From NCBI GenBank assembly GCA_963749985.1, contig CAVVOS010000006.1, forward strand, positions 429,590 through 493,589: 64,000 bases of DNA, read 5' to 3'. Under the pieces are notes generated by a model. It worked only from the letters and a program-made list of their open reading frames with translations, was not told the DNA's origin and did not search any database. The stretch's first letter is position 1. Every line of letters begins with the position of its first letter. Shown piece after piece: positions 23,655 to 32,167 of the stretch. The position numbers were made by a program, and so were the translations under genes. This DNA comes from an uncultured Acidobacteriaceae bacterium. GTDB lineage: Bacteria > Acidobacteriota > Terriglobia > Terriglobales > Acidobacteriaceae.

Positions 23655-24410
23655 GTGAGACGCACACTCTTTCCCATCCCCTTTCCCGCTCTGTCACCCT
23701 GAGCGCAGCATAACGTCCACGAAGTGGACGTCATGCGCAGTCGAAGGATCCCTACCCCCCTACACCCCACCGTCGGCCTAGCAAGGCATTTCCACGACGT
23801 ATGCAGCGTAAAGCCTTCGGGTGCGCAGCTTCCAGCGCCGCGAACAACCCCACCCCCACCACAACCCCTGTCATTCCGACGCGCGAGCGCAGCGAGACAG
23901 AAGGAACCTGCTGTTGACTTTCGCATGCACCACTCCCCCGGCGTCATCCCGAGCGCAGCCGTTCTTCCGGCGGAGCGAGGGATCTCCCGCAAATCCTCAC
24001 CGCGCTCCTGTGGGACGCACACTCCTGTCCCTCGCCTTTGCCCCTTCTCTGTCATCCTGAGCGCAGCATAACGTCCACGAAGTGGACGTCATGCGCAGTC
24101 GAAGGATCCCTACCCCCTACACCCCACCGTCGGCCTAGCAAGGCATTTCCACCACGTATGCAGCGTAAAGCCTTCGGGTGCGCGGCTTCCAACGCTGCGA
24201 ACAACCCCACCCCCACCACCAACCCTTGTCATTCCGACGCGCGAGCGCAGCGAGACAGGAGGAACCTGCTGTTGACTCTTGCATGCGCCACTCCCCGGCG
24301 TCATCCCGAGCGCAGCCGTTCTTCAGGCGGAGCGAGGGATCTCCCGCAAATCCTCACCGCGCTCGTGTGAGACGGACACCCTCTCCGTCGCCTTTGACCC
24401 TGATTTGCTT
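23655..24410. repeat. 358-bp tandem duplication (~2.1 copies), each unit made of three GTCATYC-type REPs
   Basis: CTGTCA(C/T)CCTGAGCGCAGCATAACGTCCACGAAGTGGACGTCATGCGCAGTCGAAGGATCCCTACC starts at both 23691 and 24049 (period 358). The internal GTCATTCCGACGCGCGAGCGCAGCGAGACAG and GTCATCCCGAGCGCAGCCGTTCTTC modules are also repeated. Confidence 0.95.
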
Positions 24411-24594: not shown

Positions 24595-24629
24595 ACTTTG
24601 TGCCCACCCGAGTCGATCATTGCGCGTAA

Positions 24630-24737
24630 GGAAATCCGGGGACACAGAAATCCGGGGACAGACGGGACGTTCACCATTTTCTGGAGAGTTACCTCCTCAA
24701 CGTCACATCACAAATCCTCCACCTTCAACCGCGTATC
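24630..24737. repeat. GAAATCCGGGGACAG-headed element (copy 1)
   Basis: GGAAATCCGGGGACACAGAAATCCGGGGACAGACGGGACGTTCACCATTTTCTGGAGAGTTACCTCCTCAACGTCACATCACAAATCCTCCACCTTCAACCGCGTATC. The last ~75 bp are identical to 26367-26442. Confidence 0.95.
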
Positions 24738-25052
24738 CGCGTAACCGTCTCGCTGCAATGTGATGTGGGAAGAACCTTTGTGCGCCTTAGCAGACCATCC
24801 GATGCGCAACAAAGCTCGATAGCTTCGATGATCGGCTTTTCGTTGGAGTAACATCCGGCGTGCCCTGAGTTTCACGTCCAGCAAAGGCACGGATTCCGCT
24901 TTCCCCGACTGGATTTCCTCCATCCGGCGAGCGACTTCGTGCTGCCATGCCTCCTCAACGTCCAGATCAGGTTCGCCCTCATCCAGACTTTCGATCAGGT
25001 AGCCGCGCTTGTTTTCACCAATTTGGGAGCAAAGCAATTCGCGAATCCCCAA
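24708..25052 (-). pseudogene. In-frame remnant: addiction-module antitoxin-like segment fused to a HicA-like fragment, terminated inside a repeat
   Basis: YLIESLDEGEPDLDVEEAWQHEVARRMEEIQSGKAESVPLLDV parallels the antitoxin at 25960..26196. The following ...LLRIGWSAKAHKGSSHITLQRDGYA resembles the HicA N-terminal half. The last codons (TRLKVEDL*) come from repeat 24630..24737. Confidence 0.45.
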
Positions 25053-25220
25053 TTTGGTTTCGATGGCTACGTCACAGAGGGCCGCGTTTATTCTGATGTT
25101 GAGGAGTTCTTCACGAAGCTAAAAGATGCACTCGGAAAACATTATCCGAACGCGATCATCCCAACGCTCTTCAAGAACCTGAGCAAGTGTAAACACCTAT
25201 ACACCGTTGCGGCATGAACA

Positions 25221-25622
25221 CTAAGTCCTGCGGGGGATCCGGGGTGCCCCATTTCTCGCGTCCTTTGCGAGAAGTGGGCCACCGCTGCAACGTACTCGCT
25301 CCCCCACGCTCTTCCCCACATCCTCAAACTGATTAATCTCCACCGTCCCCTCCGGAAACCGCGCCGTGATCTTCAACTTTCCACCCATCGCTTTCACAAA
25401 ACTCTGCACCGTGCTCACATACATGTCCGCGCGCCGCTCCAGCTTTGACACTGCCGCCTGATTTACTCCCAGAATCTTCGCCAAGTGCACCTGAGTCATC
25501 TCCCGCGCCTCGCGCAGCATGTGCATCGGTAGCTCCGCCTGGTATTTCTCGTACAGAACACGAGAGCGCTCCAGCGATTCCGGCGACATCTTTGCTTCAA
25601 GCTCGCGAAAATTTCTGGCCAT
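25221..25622 (-). CDS. XRE-family HTH antitoxin-like regulator
   Basis: MARNFRELEAKMSPE...MTQVHLAKILGVNQAAVSKLERRADMYVSTVQSFVKAMGGKLKITARFPEGTVEINQF is typical of HigA-type antitoxins. The C-terminal ~25 aa read into the REP at 25239-25278. Confidence 0.8.
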   Translation of the reverse strand: MARNFRELEAKMSPESLERSRVLYEKYQAELPMHMLREAREMTQVHLAKILGVNQAAVSKLERRADMYVSTVQSFVKAMGGKLKITARFPEGTVEINQFEDVGKSVGERVRCSGGPLLAKDARNGAPRIPRRT

Positions 25623-25656
25623 CTCTTCCTCTGGTTAATGTCGCTCCGAAAGCCGA

Positions 25657-25956
25657 TTACGCGCGGTCCATCCAATACCCCGGCCTGCGACGCCCATGTG
25701 CCACCGCCAGCACGAACGTCCTCGAAGCTTCTACACGGTACACGAGGCTGAAGGGAAACTGATGCAGCGTATATCGGCGAAAGTGAGATAAGTAAACAGG
25801 CCAGCGTTCAGGCGCATCCTCCACAACGTGGATTGCTTGCCAAAAGGCGCTGTCGAATTTCTCCGCCGTAGAGAAGTTCCGGTCTCGATACCAAGCCAGC
25901 GATTTCAGGTAATCTTCTTCCGCACCGGGATGAAGCTCCAGCGGCTTGACTGGCAT
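25657..25956 (-). CDS. ParE/RelE-family type II toxin
   Basis: 99 aa. ...AEEDYLKSLAWYRDRNFSTAEKF...HFRRYTLHQFPFSLVYRVEASRTFVLAVAHGRRRP fits the ParE_toxin pattern. The start is 4 nt after the upstream antitoxin stop. Confidence 0.8.
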   Translation of the reverse strand: MPVKPLELHPGAEEDYLKSLAWYRDRNFSTAEKFDSAFWQAIHVVEDAPERWPVYLSHFRRYTLHQFPFSLVYRVEASRTFVLAVAHGRRRPGYWMDRA

Positions 25957-25959
25957 CGA

Positions 25960-26196
25960 TTACTTCCCGTGCAACAGCGCCCGCCCCTTGCGCTGGACCT
26001 CGCGCCACGGAATGGTCTTGACCTTGCCCGAGCGAATCTCATCCATGCGGCGGGCAACTTCCTGCTGCCAGGCTACCTCGGCATCCTCATCCACGGACTC
26101 ATCCAGACTATCGATCAGAGAACAAGCGAGCTCAGCCCGAGCTTCAAGAGGAAGCGTCATGGCTTTCTGCAGCAATTCGTCGGTTTCCGGAGACAT
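25960..26196 (-). CDS. Addiction-module antitoxin (TIGR02574-like)
   Basis: 78 aa. ELLQKAMTLPLEARAELACSLIDSLDESVDEDAEVAWQQEVARRMDEIRSGKVKTIPWREV. Confidence 0.8.
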   Translation of the reverse strand: MSPETDELLQKAMTLPLEARAELACSLIDSLDESVDEDAEVAWQQEVARRMDEIRSGKVKTIPWREVQRKGRALLHGK

Positions 26197-26275
26197 GCCC
26201 AGATTCTAGTCCGCAGTTTGCGGATCGGCAAAAACAAAATGAGATGCCGTCGATGCGGCTTTGCCTAATAACTGG

Positions 26276-26442
26276 GGGAAATCCGGGGACAGGGAAATCC
26301 GGAAATCCGGGGACAGGAAATCCGGGGACAGACAGGAAATCCGGGGACAAGGAAATCCGGGGACAGACGGGACGTTCACCATTTTCTGGAGAGTTACCTC
26401 CTCAACGTCACATCACAAATCCTCCACCTTCAACCGCGTATC
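26276..26442. repeat. GAAATCCGGGGACAG-headed element (copy 2, expanded head)
   Basis: 5-6 tandem GAAATCCGG(GGACAG) units (26276-26366), then the same ~75-bp tail as copy 1. Confidence 0.95.
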
Positions 26443-26791
26443 ACCGGGCCTTTCTGTGCAAAGCCCGTCGATGCTACCCGCCCCTTTTCCTTTCAACAAC
26501 TTACCCCCACCCAATCCCCCATTTCCCCGCTAAACCCCGTTTTTCCCCCATTCGTTGGGATAAAGATGCGCATCTCCTTCCCCTCCAATAGGATGGCCTC
26601 AGACCAACACCCAGGGAAAAGTGTAAGAACCAGGTTCAATTCCCGGGGAGAACCGCAGTTCGTTGGGTTACATGGACTGAGCTTTATTGACCAGGTTTTG
26701 TGGACAGTCCCAGGTGAAGCCAAGCCAAATTTCCGCTAGGGTTTCCCGGACCGAACTCCCAAGACCTGACAACGAGCCAAGAGTCCCAAAA

Positions 26792-26826
26792 GGCTGAAGC
26801 CCGAAAGCCGAAGCCCGAAGCCCGAA
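26792..26826. repeat. GAAGCC-hexamer tract
   Basis: GGCTGAAGCCCGAAAGCCGAAGCCCGAAGCCCGAA, directly upstream of the radical SAM gene RBS (CAGGAGCC). Confidence 0.8.
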
Positions 26827-26846
26827 TTCAGGAGCCAGAAACTAAC

Positions 26847-29042
26847 ATGCGCAAGCCGATCAAGTACGTAGAAAAAGCAGTCACCGTCGCCGCCAAAGGC
26901 GCGTGGGTTGTGTTCGACCGCTTAAATCGCATCAACCCCGGCGCGTCCCCCACCCCCAAGTGGTCCGACAAGCCTCTGCTCAAGTCCTACGAAAAATCCA
27001 AGCCACCCCTCGGCTGGCCCCGCTCCACCGACTCTCTCTGCCCCAAGTGTGTCCCTGAAATCCGCCAGCAGATCCTCGACGGCAAGCTGCCTCACGAGGT
27101 TCTGATGAACGAAAAGGTCGGCGAGATCAAGGCCACCATCGTCGAGCGCGACGGCAAGATCCTCATGGTCAAGGACTGCCCCAAACACGGCCACTTCGAA
27201 GACGTCATGTCCATCGACACCGAGTTCTCCAAGCACTTGGAAGACGTGTTCCCCGGCCGCGACATCGTTGCCCATAACGACGAGAAACTCCATCATCACG
27301 GCTCCTCCACCGTCAAGTACGGCCGCGGCTCGGTCCTCACTATCGATCTCACCAACCGCTGCAACATGATGTGCGATCCCTGCTTCATGGACGCCAACCA
27401 GGTCGGCTTCGTTCACGAACTCACCTGGGAAGAAATCAAGACCATGCTCGACAACGCCATCACCATCAAGCCCCGTCGCCAGATGAGCGTTCAGTTCTCC
27501 GGCGGCGAACCCACGTTGTCTCCGTACTTCCTCGACGCCGTTCGCTACGCCCGCAAAGTCGGATACAACTCCGTCCAGGCCGCCACCAACGGAATCGAAT
27601 TCGCGAAAAGTTTCGAGTTCTGCCAGCAGGCCGTCGAAGCCGGCATGCGCTACGCTTACCTGCAATTCGATGGCATCGGCAACGCCGCCAACGCCCACCG
27701 CATGGTCGGCAACCTGTTCGATGTGAAATTAAAAGCCATCGAAAACCTCCACAACGCCGGAGTCGAAATCGTCCCCGTCGTGACCATCGTGAATGGCATC
27801 AACAACGAACAAGTAGGACGCATCATCAAGTTCGCGCTGGATAATCCGCGCACCATCAGCTTCCTAAGCTTCCAGCCAGTAAGCTTCACCGGCCGCGACG
27901 AAGCCGTAACCGACGACCGCCGCCAAGCCCAGCGTTACACCTTGTCTCACCTCGCCCACGACGTAAAAAACCAAACCGGCCTGGGCGACCCAAGCCGCGA
28001 CTGGTTCCCAATCAGTTTCATGGGCACCTTCAGCGACTGGGCCGACCTAATGCACGCCGAAGACAAAAACAACGACTGGGGCCAACTCTCCTGCGGTTGC
28101 CACCCGAACTGTGGGACTGGGATGGCGGTGATGATCGATAAGGAAACTAAGGAAGCGGTTCCGGTGACGGCGTTTTTGAAGGGGGATCAGCTGGCGAAGG
28201 ATATTGCCAAGGTGAACGATGCGGCGCGGGGGAAGTTTCTTACCGTGTTTGGGATGGCGTTGTGTTTGATGAAGAACTACGATCCGTATCAGGCGCCGAC
28301 GCATTTCAAGCTGATGGATCTGCTGCGGAAGTTCGATAAGAACTTTAATGCTACCGGAAAGAACTACGGTAAGGTTGGACCGGATCGGACAGTCGACGAT
28401 GTGATGAAGCGGAGGCAGGACCGGTGGAACTTCCTGTTCATCGCGGGGATGTGGTTCCAGGATCTGTTCAACTATGACTTCCGGCGGACGGAGCAGTGCA
28501 TTATTCCGTACGCGACGCAGGAAGGCGAGATTTCGTTCTGCGCGTACAACACGGGCGTGGGATGGCGGAACATCATCGAGAAGATGCATATGACGGCCAC
28601 GCTGACCAAGTGGTACGAAGAACACGGACGGCACGAAATTTTTGCGGGCGGGAAGAAAGTGAAGATGGACGACGAGATGCACACGCTTCTGCTGCGCGAG
28701 AATATTGTGACGACGGAGTTGCAGCACGATCTGGATAATTTGGGGATCGCAAAGAACGCGCGGGAAGAGAAGAAGCGGGCGAGAGATGCGAAGGCGGCTT
28801 CCGGCTCTCGGCTTCCGGCTCCCGGAGTGGAATCTGATGTGGAAGGTGAGCACCGCGGGCCGCAGAAGAATGACGATGCTTACAACGCGCGCATGGCATC
28901 GCTTTACCGTGAAGTCGTGCTGAAGGAAAAGCCGGCGGTGGCGGAGAATGGATTCATCCCGCTGGGGGCGCTGGGGAAGGGCAATGGCAACGGAGCGCAT
29001 GCTGCGAAGCCGGAAGTGGCTGAGCCGGTGGCTGGGGATTAG
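26847..29042 (+). CDS. Multi-cluster radical SAM enzyme, COG1964 / tetraether lipid synthase (Tes, GDGT-MAS)-like
   Basis: Radical SAM CxxxCxxC (LTNRCNMMCDPCF). N-terminal rubredoxin-like CPKC...CPKHGHF. Further Cys clusters (SCGCHPNCGTG; EQCIIPYATQEGEISFCAYN). 731 aa with a charged C-terminal tail. Confidence 0.8.
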   Translation: MRKPIKYVEKAVTVAAKGAWVVFDRLNRINPGASPTPKWSDKPLLKSYEKSKPPLGWPRSTDSLCPKCVPEIRQQILDGKLPHEVLMNEKVGEIKATIVERDGKILMVKDCPKHGHFEDVMSIDTEFSKHLEDVFPGRDIVAHNDEKLHHHGSSTVKYGRGSVLTIDLTNRCNMMCDPCFMDANQVGFVHELTWEEIKTMLDNAITIKPRRQMSVQFSGGEPTLSPYFLDAVRYARKVGYNSVQAATNGIEFAKSFEFCQQAVEAGMRYAYLQFDGIGNAANAHRMVGNLFDVKLKAIENLHNAGVEIVPVVTIVNGINNEQVGRIIKFALDNPRTISFLSFQPVSFTGRDEAVTDDRRQAQRYTLSHLAHDVKNQTGLGDPSRDWFPISFMGTFSDWADLMHAEDKNNDWGQLSCGCHPNCGTGMAVMIDKETKEAVPVTAFLKGDQLAKDIAKVNDAARGKFLTVFGMALCLMKNYDPYQAPTHFKLMDLLRKFDKNFNATGKNYGKVGPDRTVDDVMKRRQDRWNFLFIAGMWFQDLFNYDFRRTEQCIIPYATQEGEISFCAYNTGVGWRNIIEKMHMTATLTKWYEEHGRHEIFAGGKKVKMDDEMHTLLLRENIVTTELQHDLDNLGIAKNAREEKKRARDAKAASGSRLPAPGVESDVEGEHRGPQKNDDAYNARMASLYREVVLKEKPAVAENGFIPLGALGKGNGNGAHAAKPEVAEPVAGD

Positions 29043-29368
29043 GCTTCGGCTGACGTGCATCGAGTGGGAAAACCTGGGAGGTTTCTTCCGAGGAAATCGG
29101 GGAACGTCCCGTCTGTCCCCAGGTTTCGCCGGTGGTAAACGCTGACAAGAATGCCAGCCATGATAAGCACAGCGGCGACGCTGGGAAGAAAGAACCACCT
29201 GCTGCGGCGGAGGCCCCCATAGAAGCACAGGACTGCGCCTAACAACATCAGCCCGATCCACAGTGGGAATGAAAAGGCGCTGATGCTCGCGATCAGCAGC
29301 CAGCTTGCGAGAAACAAGGCTGTGCCGCCCCATCCAACCCACAGCGCATCTGCCCGTTGGGCAGCCAT
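29039..29368 (-). CDS. Small hypothetical membrane protein (3' end reads into REP)
   Basis: Three hydrophobic helices (GGTALFLASWLLIASISAFSF, LWIGLMLLGAVLCFYGG, FFLPSVAAVLIMAGILVSV). The C-terminal NLGTDGTFPDF... is REP-derived. Confidence 0.4.
   Translation of the reverse strand: MAAQRADALWVGWGGTALFLASWLLIASISAFSFPLWIGLMLLGAVLCFYGGLRRSRWFFLPSVAAVLIMAGILVSVYHRRNLGTDGTFPDFLGRNLPGFPTRCTSAEA
29090..29127. repeat. REP (GGGGAACGTCCCGTCTGTCCCC type)
   Basis: GAGGAAATCGGGGAACGTCCCGTCTGTCCCCAGGTTTC. Same as 32129..32167 and the inverse of 31298..31333. Confidence 0.9.
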
Positions 29369-30173: not shown

Positions 30174-31277
30174 TCACTGCTCGTTTCCGATATGCTGCAG
30201 AAAGGATTGACCTGAAACAGTCGGGTTGGTTTCTCCGGTATGGAGATTGAAAGTCTGAGCCCACGGTACGGTCGCAGAGGGCGTTCGGTCGAGCAGCAGA
30301 TGCGTTGAATTCGCCCCTGTGCCCGGATCGCCGGACGACCGAAAATTAAGTGCGCCAGGATGGTCAACCATTTCACGCAGATTGAAAATGGTGTCCAGCA
30401 TGCTAAATCTGATTCCGGCTGCCCCCAACTTCCTTATGGCGTCCTCTGGCGAACCCACGTGATATCCGAAGGCATTCAGTTTCTGGCCAGTACCGTGCTG
30501 CGCGAATGTAAAATGGAAGCTGTCGTCAAGGGCTCCTCCGCCCGTTATCCCACTCGTCGGATCGCTGCCTTCCTTCCACACTCCCGTTGACGACTGGGTA
30601 CTGCCATTTTGGGTGAAGCTCACATTCGTACCGTCGAACGTGCCGCTATACTGGTTTCCGCTCTGGTCAACCAAATTGCCGTTCTTGTCGTTGCTGATCT
30701 CCGTGGCAGTGAAGGTTGAAGTCGTCGTTTGGTTACCATTGGCATCTGTGGTCGTGGTTGTTGTAGTGGTCCCTTGCAGCCCGCCCTGACACGTAGCGGT
30801 GTCCGGACCAGAGCAGCCGGGGTTAAAGTTCAACCCAGTTGGATCGGTCAACTTGAGCGGATTGTTCCGAACGTAGGCGTAGCGGTTTAGGCTCTGCGGG
30901 TCTTTGGTATCCCCACCCATTGGATCGGGCGACATGAAGCGTCCAAGGCTAGACCCGAGGTATCGAGCCTCGAAGTTATCGAGGCCGGATTCGGCATCGC
31001 GTTCTTTGCCGGTGAATTTGTAGTGGTTCGCGTCGCTGCCGCTCGTGTATGCGATGCCACCAAACGGGTAGTAGTCGGTTTGTTGTTCGATGTTTCCGGA
31101 GGCGTCGGTGATAACGCTGGCCGACCCGAGGTGATTCGAGAAATAGTAATGGATCGTTCCGCTCGGTTGATCTACACGGGCGATGCGTTCGCCGTTGAGG
31201 TAAACATACTCCTCGTTGAGAGTGCCAGTAAGGGCGGCTTCGGTAAGAACTTCTCCGCCGGGACCTGGCCAGTACAT
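30174..31277 (-). pseudogene. Orphan Rhs repeat-associated core end plus C-terminal toxin domain (N-terminally truncated)
   Basis: YYFSNHLGSASVITDASGNIEQQTDYYPFGG...YKFTGKERDAESGLDNFEARYLGSSLGRFMSPDP...LNRYAYVRNNPLKLTDPTGL, then ~225 aa of unrecognised C-terminal domain with a poly-Thr linker. There is no Rhs shell upstream; the track ORF N-terminus reads through REP 31298..31333. Confidence 0.75.
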
Positions 31278-31297
31278 CGTCCCGGAAGACCCGGAGG

Positions 31298-32167
31298 GGA
31301 AACCCGGGGACAGACGGGACGTTCCCCGGTTTTCGGCGACCAATATGGGAACGAGCCACCCAATACTAACCCGAAACCTGTGCTGTCTGGTTCCTAACAC
31401 GCCTTCCCGATGATATTTTCTGGGCATGGCTCGCTTGCCTCGCGTGGTTCTTGCCGACGTTGCTCATCATGTTACGCAGCGCGGCAATGCCCGGCAAGTG
31501 ATCTTGGCCGACGACGCGGACCGCACGGCTTACCTCGACTTGCTGCGGCAATATTCCCAACTCTACCGTCTTTGCGTGTTGGGCTACTGCCTGATGTCCA
31601 ATCACGTGCACTTAGTCGTGATTCCCCGCACCCCTGAGGCCTTGTGGCAAGCTCTCAAACAGATACACGGACGCTATGCGGCGTATTGGAACGCGCGCGC
31701 GTCGTCCAGTGGGCACGTGTGGCAGGGGCGATTTTATTCCTGCCCTCTGGACGACGCGCACCTGTGGGCGGCGCTGCGCTACGTGGAGTTGAACCCGGTG
31801 CGCGCCGGCATGGCATTCGCGGCGCAGGAGTGGCGATGGTCGAGCGCGGCGGCTCACTGTATGTCCGGTGCCGCCGACCCGATGCTGGAAATGGAAGCGT
31901 GGCACAAACGATGGACGGTGGCGGAGTGGAAGGCGCATCTGACGGCCGGAGAGTCGGCGATCGATATTGACGCCCTGCGCCGGTGCACGCACACCGGCCG
32001 ACCGCTTGGAACAACCGAATTCGTCGCTCAGCTCGAACAGGCGACCTCGCGCCCGCTGGCTCCGCGCAAGGGAGGACGGCCCAAAAAGCCCGCCGCCGAT
32101 GCGCAGGATGGTTTTGCATTTGTTGCCTGAGGAAATCGGGGAACGTCCCGTCTGTCCCCAGGTTTTC
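31298..32167 (+). mobile_element. REPtron: RAYT gene bracketed by inverted REPs
   Basis: Left GAAACCCGGGGACAGACGGGACGTTCCCCGGTTTTC (31298-31333) is the near-exact reverse complement of right GAGGAAATCGGGGAACGTCCCGTCTGTCCCCAGGTTTTC (32129-32167). The right copy overlaps the RAYT stop codon. Confidence 0.8.
31426..32130 (+). CDS. IS200/Y1-type REP-associated tyrosine transposase (RAYT)
   Basis: HUH motif (CLMSNHVHLVVIP) and catalytic Tyr region (ALRYVELNPVRAGM). 234 aa. Confidence 0.88.
   Translation: MARLPRVVLADVAHHVTQRGNARQVILADDADRTAYLDLLRQYSQLYRLCVLGYCLMSNHVHLVVIPRTPEALWQALKQIHGRYAAYWNARASSSGHVWQGRFYSCPLDDAHLWAALRYVELNPVRAGMAFAAQEWRWSSAAAHCMSGAADPMLEMEAWHKRWTVAEWKAHLTAGESAIDIDALRRCTHTGRPLGTTEFVAQLEQATSRPLAPRKGGRPKKPAADAQDGFAFVA

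What the first reader, a model, noticed from the sequence alone, without database searches (positions are those of the whole stretch)
26847..29042. Stand-alone multi-cluster radical SAM enzyme resembling archaeal tetraether lipid synthase (Tes / GDGT-MAS)
Seen:
- a CPKC...CPKHGHF rubredoxin-like N-terminus, with an intervening ...ATIVERDGKILMVKDCPKHG segment;
- the radical SAM motif CNMMCDPC;
- additional Cys groups (SCGCHPNCGTG; CIIPY...FCAY);
- 731 aa in total, with no partner genes, and repeats on both sides.

Known:
- The COG1964 radical SAM family includes Tes/GDGT-MAS, which couples two lipid tails. It contains three 4Fe-4S clusters plus a rubredoxin-like iron.
- Bacterial homologs, notably in Acidobacteria, have been proposed as candidates for membrane-spanning (iso-diabolic acid / brGDGT) lipid synthesis.

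Inference: this gene is such a candidate. I cannot confirm the family assignment without a search.
Basis: partly seen in the sequence, partly recalled or inferred. Interest (0 to 1): 0.6.

Follow-up and report, generated by a model that had tools for sequence, protein, structure and literature searches.

The report
Acidobacterial Tes-like lipid-coupling enzyme, one cluster short
This soil-acidobacterium gene encodes a real but divergent relative of the archaeal enzyme that welds two lipid tails into a membrane-spanning lipid; its near-universal acidobacterial branch has lost one of the enzyme's four metal centres and is a published but still untested candidate maker of the bacterial lipids used as palaeoclimate proxies.

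Summary
The 731-aa ORF (26847..29042 +) is real and is a Tes/GDGT-MAS-fold radical SAM enzyme: PDB 7TOL 2.8e-63, and the AlphaFold2 model matches 7TOL/7TOM at TM 0.84-0.86. It keeps the rubredoxin-like CX2C...CX2H site, the CX3CX2C radical SAM motif, the C-terminal cluster cysteines, and the equivalents of Met439, Tyr459 and the SAM-gating loop. It has no cysteine where the N-terminal auxiliary [4Fe-4S] cluster binds, and it scores 320 bits against NCBIfam's 450-bit Tes cut-off. Proteins lacking that cluster form one 100%-supported clade. This subclade ("type A") was found in about 55 of 61 genera sampled in the family and about half of 400 Acidobacteriota genomes. It has no conserved gene neighbour, but a conserved single-copy ~160-nt upstream element travels with it in close relatives. 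It is the only family member in this genome with a complete active-site set. The most likely function, not demonstrated, is tail-to-tail C-C coupling of iso-branched lipid chains (iso-diabolic acid / brGDGT). The hypothesis was published in 2022 and is still untested. Type A's 30-31% identity to archaeal Tes sits on the cut-off behind the published "3 of 14" objection. This scan reached the same conclusion on other genomes.

The parts
26847..29042 (+). CDS, 731 aa: Tes/GDGT-MAS-like radical SAM enzyme, 'type A' acidobacterial clade
26853..26933 (+). Residues 3-29: predicted long amphipathic helix (muH 0.57). It belongs to a conserved ~60-aa N-terminal extension that Mj GDGT-MAS lacks. It may associate with the membrane surface (inference).
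27018..27212 (+). Residues 58-122: rubredoxin-like / Zn-ribbon_HMPTM domain, C65X2C68...C111X2H114, with a 22-aa insertion relative to Mj (C9X2C12X20C33X2H36)
27258..27326 (+). Residues 138-160: the segment that replaces the [4Fe-4S]N motif (Mj CPYDCGLCPNH). It has no Cys. H143, H149 and H151 are invariant in close orthologues.
27348..27836 (+). Residues 168-330: radical SAM core. The CX3CX2C motif is C172/C176/C179 (nt 27360-27383). The GGE motif is at 219-221.
27873..27896 (+). Residues 343-350, 'QPVSFTGR': the SAM-gating loop, equivalent to Mj Q268/S271/R275 and identical in sequence
28092..28541 (+). Residues 416-565: C-terminal auxiliary-cluster domain. C422, C551 and C565 align with Mj C338, C455 and C470. 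M535 aligns with the labile Met439 and Y555 with Tyr459. All are invariant across 90 bacterial and archaeal sequences. C416 and C418 ('CxCH') are additional conserved cysteines.
28647..29039 (+). Residues 601-731: variable, mostly disordered, charged tail (pLDDT largely below 60, and below 50 from residue 695 to the end). Two islands are conserved among close orthologues (~626-650 and ~678-707).
26481..26640 (+). Conserved non-coding upstream element. It has a promoter-like block (several loci have a perfect TATAAT) followed by the invariant blocks CCGCTAAACCCC, TTCGTTGGGAT..ATGCGC, AATAGGATAG and ACCCAGGGAAAAGTGTA. It travels with the gene in at least 16 close relatives and is single-copy in this genome.
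26830..26834 (+). AGGAG ribosome-binding site, 12 nt upstream of the ATG
26334..26442 (.). Upstream flanking REP-type repeat (98% copy of 24629-24737). It is context, not part of the gene.
29090..29130 (.). Downstream flanking REP copy, 48 nt after the stop codon. It shows no special terminator-like stability (z -0.14).

Best explanation
The gene encodes a peripheral, lipid-binding radical SAM enzyme with the GDGT-MAS/Tes fold. The proposed mechanism, by analogy with GDGT-MAS, is as follows. The enzyme reductively cleaves SAM at the CX3CX2C cluster. It abstracts a hydrogen atom from the terminal methyl of an iso-branched C15 chain of a glycerolipid. It parks the resulting radical as an S-C adduct on the C-terminal auxiliary [4Fe-4S] cluster (ligands C422, C551 and C565, plus the labile M535). 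A second SAM then generates a second tail radical, which attacks the adduct and forms an omega-omega' C-C bond. The product is a membrane-spanning lipid: an iso-diabolic acid backbone, or brGDGT where ether bonds are made. Unlike archaeal Tes, it works with two [4Fe-4S] clusters plus the rubredoxin-like iron, because the surface N-terminal auxiliary cluster has been lost. It is expressed as a monocistronic gene from its own conserved upstream region.

Shown here: the fold, the conservation of the cofactor and active-site residues, the loss of the cluster motif, the clade structure and the distribution. Inferred: the substrate, the product, the electron route and the regulation.
For: 1. Fold and family. 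PDB 7TOL matches at 2.8e-63. The AlphaFold2 model has pLDDT 84.4 and pTM 0.83. Foldseek gives 7TOM/7TOL at E ~1e-35 and TM 0.84-0.86 normalised to the target; the next hit (MoaA, 2.6e-7) covers only the radical SAM core.
2. Catalytic set. C172/C176/C179, C422, M535, C551, Y555, C565 and Q343/R350 are invariant across 90 sequences that include 31 archaeal Tes. Residue numbering was verified against the structure paper.
3. Strong purifying selection. Identity among 77 orthologues is 0.8-0.99 over residues 31-600.
4. Distribution parallels the lipid. The gene was found in 39 of 41 relatives, in about 55 of 61 genera of the family that contains Acidipila rosea, and in 248 of 400 Acidobacteriota genomes, about 195 at orthologue level by my count from the table. 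The literature says almost all SD1/3/4/6 species make iso-diabolic acid and that no mss homologue was detected in the acidobacterial genomes examined (PMC13159169).
5. It is the only family member in this genome with a complete C-cluster/Met/Tyr set. The C8 paralogue and the 'type B' relatives have lost several of these residues. No canonical Tes is present.
6. Chemistry is compatible. GDGT-MAS binds ester-linked bacterial phosphatidic acid (PMC9433317), and an iso-C15 terminus has the same structure as a phytanyl terminus (Zeng 2022).
7. Specificity control. At E<=1e-30 the Tes model hits only the three GDGT-producing archaea among 14 control genomes.
Against: - No bacterial Tes homologue has been tested (PMC11868695).
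- The protein fails the curated Tes equivalog cut-off (319.6 against 450 bits) and lacks the [4Fe-4S]N site. In GDGT-MAS that cluster lies on the protein surface, and the authors suggest the auxiliary cofactors may tune redox potentials and electron transfer.
- Sahonero-Canavesi et al. found Tes homologues in only 3 of 14 iso-diabolic-acid-producing acidobacteria and proposed an alternative pathway. Their >=30% identity cut-off falls exactly on this clade's 30-31% identity, so the objection is fragile.
- S. usitatus carries a type A-like gene (Acid_2410, 714 aa, 30.1%) but has no detectable iso-diabolic acid; it does make brGDGTs.
- There is no operon context linking the gene to lipid genes.
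- The lipids of this organism (a MAG-level genome) are unknown.
Confidence: 0.6

Rival explanations
1. The fold is the same but the reaction is different. The enzyme modifies lipid tails or another long hydrophobic substrate in some other way, for example an intramolecular macrocyclisation only, a mid-chain cross-link, or a desaturation- or thiolation-type reaction. It would not perform the intermolecular tail-to-tail coupling that makes membrane-spanning lipids.
For: The clade sits on a long stem branch (0.67) away from canonical Tes. It has lost one cofactor and gained N- and C-terminal extensions. It scores below the equivalog cut-off. S. usitatus has it without detectable iso-diabolic acid. 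Nine of 61 genera keep a canonical Tes alongside it, in two genomes only about 3 and 11 kb away, which would fit non-redundant roles.
Against: Every residue tied to the coupling mechanism is invariant: the C-cluster ligands, the labile Met, Tyr459 and the gating loop. No cobalamin-binding or other extra catalytic domain that would suggest different chemistry was found. GDGT-MAS itself does both macrocyclisation and coupling.
Confidence: 0.2
2. It is an accessory or second-step enzyme. Another protein (a canonical Tes where present, or an unknown enzyme) makes the first C-C bond, and type A only closes the second bond (GTGT to GDGT type) or acts as a partner.
For: Type A co-occurs with, and in two genomes lies near, a canonical Tes. 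S. usitatus has both types and accumulates brGTGTs.
Against: Most genomes of the family, including this one and the cultured A. rosea, have type A as the only complete family member. According to the literature, almost all SD1 species make membrane-spanning iso-diabolic acid.
Confidence: 0.1
3. The substrate is not a lipid. Examples are pterin methylation, as in the legacy JGI name '7,8-dihydro-6-hydroxymethylpterin dimethyltransferase', or a TrsS-like selenium-related role.
For: The legacy annotation appears on many orthologues. TrsS is the second-best NCBIfam model at 205.6 bits.
Against: The authors of the GDGT-MAS structure paper could not corroborate an earlier functional report for MJ0619; that this earlier report was the pterin methyltransferase assignment behind the JGI name is my reading. 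The TrsS score is far below its 490-bit cut-off. There are no conserved partner genes. I did not test for methanopterin-pathway genes.
Confidence: 0.04
4. It is a catalytically dead or purely structural protein.
For: One cofactor site has been lost.
Against: All remaining cofactor and SAM-binding residues are invariant, and identity across the phylum is 80-99% over 570 residues.
Confidence: 0.02

Closest known systems
Archaeal tetraether synthase Tes / GDGT-MAS (M. jannaschii MJ0619, PDB 7TOL/7TOM; M. acetivorans MA_1486; NCBIfam NF045702)
   Same: - Same overall fold (TM 0.84-0.86).
- Same rubredoxin-like CX2C...CX2H site and radical SAM CX3CX2C motif.
- Same C-terminal auxiliary cluster cysteines, labile Met, conserved Tyr and SAM-gating loop 'FQPVSFTGR'.
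- Also a stand-alone gene.
   Different: - Only 30-31% identical, and 319.6 bits against the 450-bit cut-off.
- The four ligands of the N-terminal auxiliary [4Fe-4S] cluster are absent.
- A 22-aa insertion in the rubredoxin-like domain.
- A conserved ~60-aa N-terminal extension with an amphipathic helix.
- A ~140-aa C-terminal extension (conserved core to about residue 600-650, then a disordered tail).
- The host is a bacterium with ester-type, iso-branched lipids.
Published acidobacterial 'Tes homologues': E. aggregans homologue (Zeng 2022) and S. usitatus Acid_2410 (Halamka 2022)
   Same: Length (~714-731 aa), ~30-32% identity and E ~1e-61 to archaeal Tes. These are almost certainly the same orthologous group. 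That is inferred from the reported numbers, because the sequences could not be fetched here.
   Different: In the texts I read, those papers treat all bacterial homologues as one set. They do not separate this clade, which lacks the N-cluster, from the canonical bacterial Tes (Acid_5929, Koribacter; 40-42% identity), and they do not mention the lost cofactor site.
Bacterial membrane-spanning lipid synthase Mss (Thermotoga maritima, Thermoanaerobacter ethanolicus)
   Same: A radical SAM enzyme shown to couple fatty-acid tails into diabolic or iso-diabolic acids. That is the reaction proposed here.
   Different: The literature describes Mss as only remotely related to Tes, restricted to anaerobes, and not detected in the acidobacterial genomes examined (PMC13159169). 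I did not compare sequences directly.
'Type B' acidobacterial paralogues (e.g. Terriglobus roseus WP_014786616.1) and this genome's own paralogue on contig C8
   Same: Same family and same Zn-ribbon plus radical SAM architecture. Type B is the sister subclade within the clade that lacks the N-cluster.
   Different: Most of type B (the T. roseus protein, P0149, P0184; not P0148) has lost the equivalents of C422, C551 and Y555. The C8 paralogue keeps the N-cluster motif but has S, T, I and D at the C422, C551, Y555 and C565 positions, so neither has the complete coupling site.

Membership tests
Tes / GDGT-MAS (NCBIfam NF045702 equivalog) | Whole-protein score at or above the curated cut-off of 450 bits | tested here: not met
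   The window protein scores 319.6 bits and 318.8 in the genome search. Canonical representatives score 463-593 bits, with one at 432.5.
Tes / GDGT-MAS | Radical SAM CX3CX2C cluster motif | tested here: met
   C172/C176/C179 are invariant.
Tes / GDGT-MAS | N-terminal rubredoxin-like iron site CX2C...CX2H | tested here: met
   C65, C68, C111 and H114 are invariant in orthologues. The spacer is 42 residues against 20. Pfam PF23545 matches at 5e-13.
Tes / GDGT-MAS | N-terminal auxiliary [4Fe-4S] cluster ligated by C73/C77/C80 and a His | tested here: not met
   There is no Cys between C111 and C172. The aligned segment reads AHNDEKLHHHGSS. The loss is shared by a clade with 100/100 support.
Tes / GDGT-MAS | C-terminal auxiliary [4Fe-4S] cluster cysteines plus the labile Met439 | tested here: met
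   C422, C551, C565 and M535 align with Mj C338, C455, C470 and M439 and are invariant across 90 sequences. That these three cysteines are the actual ligands is inferred from conservation; the paper text I could search does not number them.
Tes / GDGT-MAS | Strictly conserved Tyr459 and the SAM-gating loop Q268/S271/R275 | tested here: met
   Y555, Q343 and R350 are invariant and S346 is at least 90% conserved.
Tes / GDGT-MAS | Overall four-domain fold | tested here: met
   Foldseek gives 7TOL/7TOM at E ~1e-35 and TM 0.84-0.86 normalised to the target.
Tes / GDGT-MAS | Catalyses tail-to-tail Csp3-Csp3 coupling of lipid chains | not testable with these tools
   This needs biochemistry or genetics. 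The literature says it is untested for bacterial homologues.
Mss (bacterial membrane-spanning lipid synthase) | Sequence homology to T. maritima / T. ethanolicus Mss | not tested
   No Mss sequence or profile was available in the libraries used. The literature reports no mss homologues in the acidobacterial genomes examined.
TrsS radical SAM (seleno)protein (NF045646) | Score at or above 490 bits | tested here: not met
   205.6 bits.
Radical SAM/SPASM peptide maturases | Best profile or structure matches to SPASM maturases, or a precursor peptide or partner nearby | tested here: not met
   SPASM families match only the radical SAM core, at 1e-7 to 1e-13. There is no conserved neighbour.

The most novel reading that the evidence does not exclude
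Type A is the missing acidobacterial synthase that makes the omega-omega' C-C bond of iso-diabolic acid and brGDGT lipids. It does so with a reduced cofactor set (radical SAM cluster, C-terminal cluster and rubredoxin-like iron) after a single ancestral loss of the surface-exposed N-terminal [4Fe-4S] cluster. That loss may be an adaptation to oxic soils. The conserved gene-specific upstream element would be the site where the known O2 and temperature responses of these lipids are set.
Probability: 0.4. Interest if true: 0.8.

Novelty: new variant of a known kind. Interest (0 to 1): 0.5.

Why it matters
brGDGTs underpin widely used palaeotemperature and pH proxies, yet the enzyme that makes their membrane-spanning C-C bond in Acidobacteria is still unidentified. 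This analysis does not solve that, but it narrows the experiment in four ways.

- **Three kinds of homologue.** Acidobacterial 'Tes homologues' fall into canonical Tes, type A and type B. Only canonical Tes and type A (and one type B representative) keep the coupling site.
- **Best match to the lipid.** Type A is near-universal in the family whose cultured members almost all make iso-diabolic acid, so it is the copy that best matches the lipid's distribution.
- **The published objection is fragile.** The '3 of 14' result rests on a 30% identity cut-off that this clade straddles.
- **A biochemical test.** The enzyme should carry two rather than three [4Fe-4S] clusters, which is directly testable and bears on what the N-terminal cluster does in archaeal Tes.

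Tried and rejected
1. **Compensatory cysteines.** I considered that the invariant extra cysteines C416/C418 (with H149/H151) arose to replace the lost N-cluster. Rejected: the same CxCH motif occurs in canonical sequences that still have the N-cluster (P0199, P0218).
2. **Riboswitch or structured leader.** Not supported for the conserved upstream element. There is no Rfam match, and RNAalifold gives -4.1 kcal/mol with essentially no covariation. A conserved small ORF is excluded by 1-nt indels. A dispersed repeat or regulon motif is excluded because the element is single-copy.
3. **Terminator in the downstream REP.** No special stability (z -0.14). The sigma-70 scan found no convincing + strand promoter.
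4. **Conserved gene neighbours or an operon.** None found.
5. **Strict division of labour** (type A makes only iso-diabolic acid, canonical Tes makes only brGDGT). Weakened: S. usitatus has a type A-like gene but no detectable iso-diabolic acid.
6. **PlsA/Ger ether-forming enzyme in this genome.** No HGD-D domain hit.
7. **Checks I could not run.**
   - Distance checks in the model: coordinates are not exposed.
   - Named presence/absence across cultured strains: genome handles are anonymous, the Sahonero-Canavesi supplement is not held, and PMC3131667 is not held.
Full report
**Observation.** An AGGAG sequence lies 12 nt before the ATG. The N-terminal 60 residues are conserved in orthologues, which supports this start codon. 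Pfam finds Radical_SAM (residues 168-330, 9.5e-18) and the 'HMPTM' N-terminal zinc ribbon (residues 58-122, 5e-13). REP-type dispersed repeats flank the gene. The surrounding ~10 kb holds toxin-antitoxin genes, an Rhs C-terminal fragment and an IS200/RAYT-like gene, as earlier notes of this scan also recorded.

**Family.** The best NCBIfam model is tetraether lipid synthase Tes (NF045702, 3e-95). The score, 319.6 bits, is below the curated 450-bit equivalog cut-off. TrsS is second at 205.6 bits against a 490-bit cut-off, and SPASM maturases match only the radical SAM core. The best solved structure by sequence is M. jannaschii GDGT-MAS (7TOL, 2.8e-63, query residues 93-590). An AlphaFold2 model built on a 90-sequence alignment has mean pLDDT 84.4 and pTM 0.83. 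Foldseek places it on 7TOM/7TOL with E ~1e-35 and TM 0.84-0.86 normalised to the target. The next hit, MoaA (2.6e-7), covers only the radical SAM core.

**Cofactor sites.** The structure paper (PMC9433317) defines four metal sites and two conserved residues:
- a rubredoxin-type site, C9X2C12X20C33X2H36;
- [4Fe-4S]N on C73/C77/C80 plus a His;
- the radical SAM cluster on CX3CX2C;
- [4Fe-4S]C with a labile Met439;
- a strictly conserved Tyr459.

I rebuilt residues 15-492 of the Mj protein from the printed HMMER alignment. Its numbering reproduces all of these positions.

In the window protein these features are retained:
- the rubredoxin-like site (C65, C68, C111, H114), with a 22-residue insertion;
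- the radical SAM motif (C172/C176/C179);
- C422, C551 and C565, aligned with Mj C338, C455 and C470;
- M535 (Met439) and Y555 (Tyr459);
- the SAM-gating loop 'FQPVSFTGR', which is identical.

These calls rest. In the 90-sequence alignment spanning this clade, other acidobacterial classes and 31 archaeal Tes, these residues are invariant.

The [4Fe-4S]N motif is absent. The protein has no cysteine between C111 and C172, and the aligned segment reads AHNDEKLHHHGSS. So 'three clusters plus rubredoxin' does not apply here. The sequence supports two [4Fe-4S] clusters plus the mononuclear site.

**Clade structure.** I took full-length representatives from an exhaustive HMMER search of 1.84 billion proteins, which found 604 clusters at E<=1e-30.
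- Those with the N-cluster motif score 463-593 bits on the Tes model (one scores 432.5). Those without it score 239-414 bits.
- In an IQ-TREE analysis, 10 of the 11 sequences lacking the motif form a single clade with 100/100 support on a long stem (0.67), next to canonical Tes-like sequences. This is consistent with one ancestral loss.
- Inside that clade the window's subclade ('type A') keeps the complete C-cluster/Met/Tyr set.
- In the sister subclade ('type B'), most members (Terriglobus roseus WP_014786616.1, P0149, P0184) have lost it; one (P0148) retains it.
- This genome's only other family member is a 554-aa paralogue on contig C8. It keeps the N-cluster motif but has S, T, I and D at the C422, C551, Y555 and C565 positions.
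- No canonical Tes is present.

The window gene is therefore the only copy in this genome with a complete coupling site.

**Organism, conservation and distribution.**
- The closest named relatives (93-94% identity) are Candidatus Sulfotelmatobacter and 'uncultured Acidobacteriaceae' MAGs, order Terriglobales.
- More than 120 clusters at the 90% level match at 85-92% identity over the full length.
- Among 77 orthologues, residues 31-600 are 0.8-0.99 identical. Residues 601-731 are variable, partly gapped and predicted disordered, with two conserved islands.
- The N-terminal extension contains a long amphipathic helix (residues 3-29, muH 0.57). There is no transmembrane segment.
- The orthologue was found in 39 of 41 relatives.
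- It was found in 248 of 400 Acidobacteriota genomes at least 90% complete. About 195 of these are at orthologue level by my count from the table.
- With one genome per genus, it was found in about 55 of 61 genomes of the window's family.
- That family contains the cultured Acidipila rosea, whose genome has type A as its only Tes-family hit.
- A canonical Tes occurs in only 9 of those 61 genomes. In two of them it lies about 3 and 11 kb from type A.
- Across 80 orthologous loci no neighbouring gene is conserved; the maximum is 11 loci. The gene is core but sits in variable surroundings, which qualifies the earlier 'accessory segment' note.

**Upstream element.** A segment at about 26481-26640 is conserved at 70-88% identity upstream of the orthologue in at least 16 close relatives. 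It occurs once per locus, on the gene's strand, with its 3' conserved block 115-345 nt before the ATG. It begins with a promoter-like block; several loci have a perfect TATAAT. It continues with near-invariant blocks (CCGCTAAACCCC, TTCGTTGGGAT..ATGCGC, AATAGGATAG, ACCCAGGGAAAAGTGTA). It has no Rfam match, shows no supported consensus fold or covariation, is not coding (1-nt indels), and is single-copy in this genome. I read it as the gene's own promoter/operator and 5' leader. What it responds to is unknown.

**Literature.**
- Zeng et al. 2022 found 456 bacterial Tes homologues and proposed a role in brGDGT synthesis. They named E. aggregans (32%, 4e-61), Koribacter and Solibacter.
- Halamka et al. 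2022 proposed the two S. usitatus homologues. Their supplement lists Acid_5929 (545 aa, 40.2%, 1e-139) and Acid_2410 (714 aa, 30.1%, 4e-62). By length and score these correspond to canonical Tes and type A respectively; this is an inference.
- Sahonero-Canavesi et al. 2022 identified the unrelated Mss/Ger route in anaerobes and detected no mss in the acidobacterial genomes they examined. They found Tes homologues in only 3 of 14 iso-diabolic-acid producers at E<=1e-50 and identity >=30%, and suggested an alternative pathway. BLASTP identity of the window protein to three archaeal Tes is 30-31%, so that cut-off bisects this clade and the negative result is fragile.
- A 2025 paper states that bacterial Tes homologues remain experimentally unconfirmed. 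A 2026 paper on Bacillota and a 2026 review add no test of an acidobacterial enzyme.

**Function.** The most likely mechanism is the GDGT-MAS mechanism applied to iso-branched bacterial lipids: two sequential SAM-derived radicals, with storage of the first tail radical as an S-C adduct on the C-terminal cluster, giving an omega-omega' bond. Support comes from the preserved fold and catalytic residues, strong purifying selection, a distribution that parallels a near-universal lipid, the lack of mss in the acidobacterial genomes examined in the literature, and the known ability of GDGT-MAS to bind ester-linked phosphatidic acid.

This genome has no PlsA/Ger-type enzyme. It does have a FAR-type reductase / acyl-AMP ligase cluster on contig C12. 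The product here is therefore more likely ester-bound iso-diabolic acid than a full tetraether, unless that cluster supplies ether bonds.

Caveats:
- the function is untested;
- the protein fails two Tes membership criteria;
- S. usitatus carries a type A-like gene without detectable iso-diabolic acid, though it makes brGDGTs;
- how electrons reach the radical SAM cluster without the N-terminal cluster is unknown.

**Verdict.** The gene is a new variant of a known kind, and the hypothesis is already published.

Noticed in passing
G000:C8:~806289-807863 (-); L002:694-2358 (-): The 554-aa Tes-family paralogue carries two in-frame insertions (…CHSDRSPERSDGEWRNLL…, …CHSERSPERSDGESRNLL…) that resemble translations of the dispersed REP-type repeat found in intergenic DNA of the window (e.g. 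23688-24380). This looks like repeat insertions tolerated inside a coding sequence.
   Followed up: partly
G000:C12:412000-424000 (L089): A minus-strand cluster encodes an enoyl-CoA hydratase, an acyl-AMP ligase, a pyruvyl-transferase-like protein, a 377-aa NAD_binding_4 reductase and an 844-aa HAD + NAD_binding_4 + Sterile (FAR-type) fatty acyl reductase. It is a possible fatty-alcohol or ether-lipid (elb-like) route in a genome that lacks PlsA/Ger.
   Followed up: partly
G481:C58:41228-47658 and G497:C1:980756-995149 (relatives): In two genera of the family, a canonical Tes (about 586-589 bits) lies about 3 and 11 kb from the type A gene. Overall, 9 of 61 genera carry a canonical Tes; 8 of those also have type A and one (G470) has only the canonical gene.
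   Followed up: no
P0138 (Terriglobus roseus WP_014786616.1), P0149, P0184: The 'type B' sister subclade lacks the N-cluster, and most members also lack the C-cluster cysteines and Tyr459. Its role is unknown. In some sister families of the order it is the only family member found (39-40% identity hits).
   Followed up: partly
window 1-64000, sign change near 26000-28000: GC skew is negative to the left and positive to the right, and the cumulative skew reaches its minimum at about 26-28 kb. This could be a replication origin or terminus, or a strand-bias switch, close to the gene.
   Followed up: no
window 26780-26828: Short GCCCGAA(A/G) tandem repeats lie in the 5' untranslated region, just upstream of the ribosome-binding site.
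   Followed up: no
G011:C12:230392-230559 (relative): An isolated fragment 87% identical to residues 678-731 (the C-terminal tail) lies about 4.4 kb from that genome's full-length orthologue. It may be a remnant of a duplication or rearrangement.
   Followed up: no
P0045, P0078, P0110: Proteins 86-89% identical to this acidobacterial enzyme are labelled Candidatus Eisenbacteria, Candidatus Binatia and Verrucomicrobiae in public MAG records. This probably reflects mis-binned or mislabelled contigs rather than true cross-phylum distribution.
   Followed up: no
window 24708-26196, 30174-32130: The immediate surroundings are mobile or accessory: a ParE toxin with an antitoxin, an XRE-type HTH gene, an orphan Rhs C-terminal cassette and an IS200/RAYT-like gene bracketed by REPs. 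Earlier notes of this scan recorded the same.
   Followed up: partly
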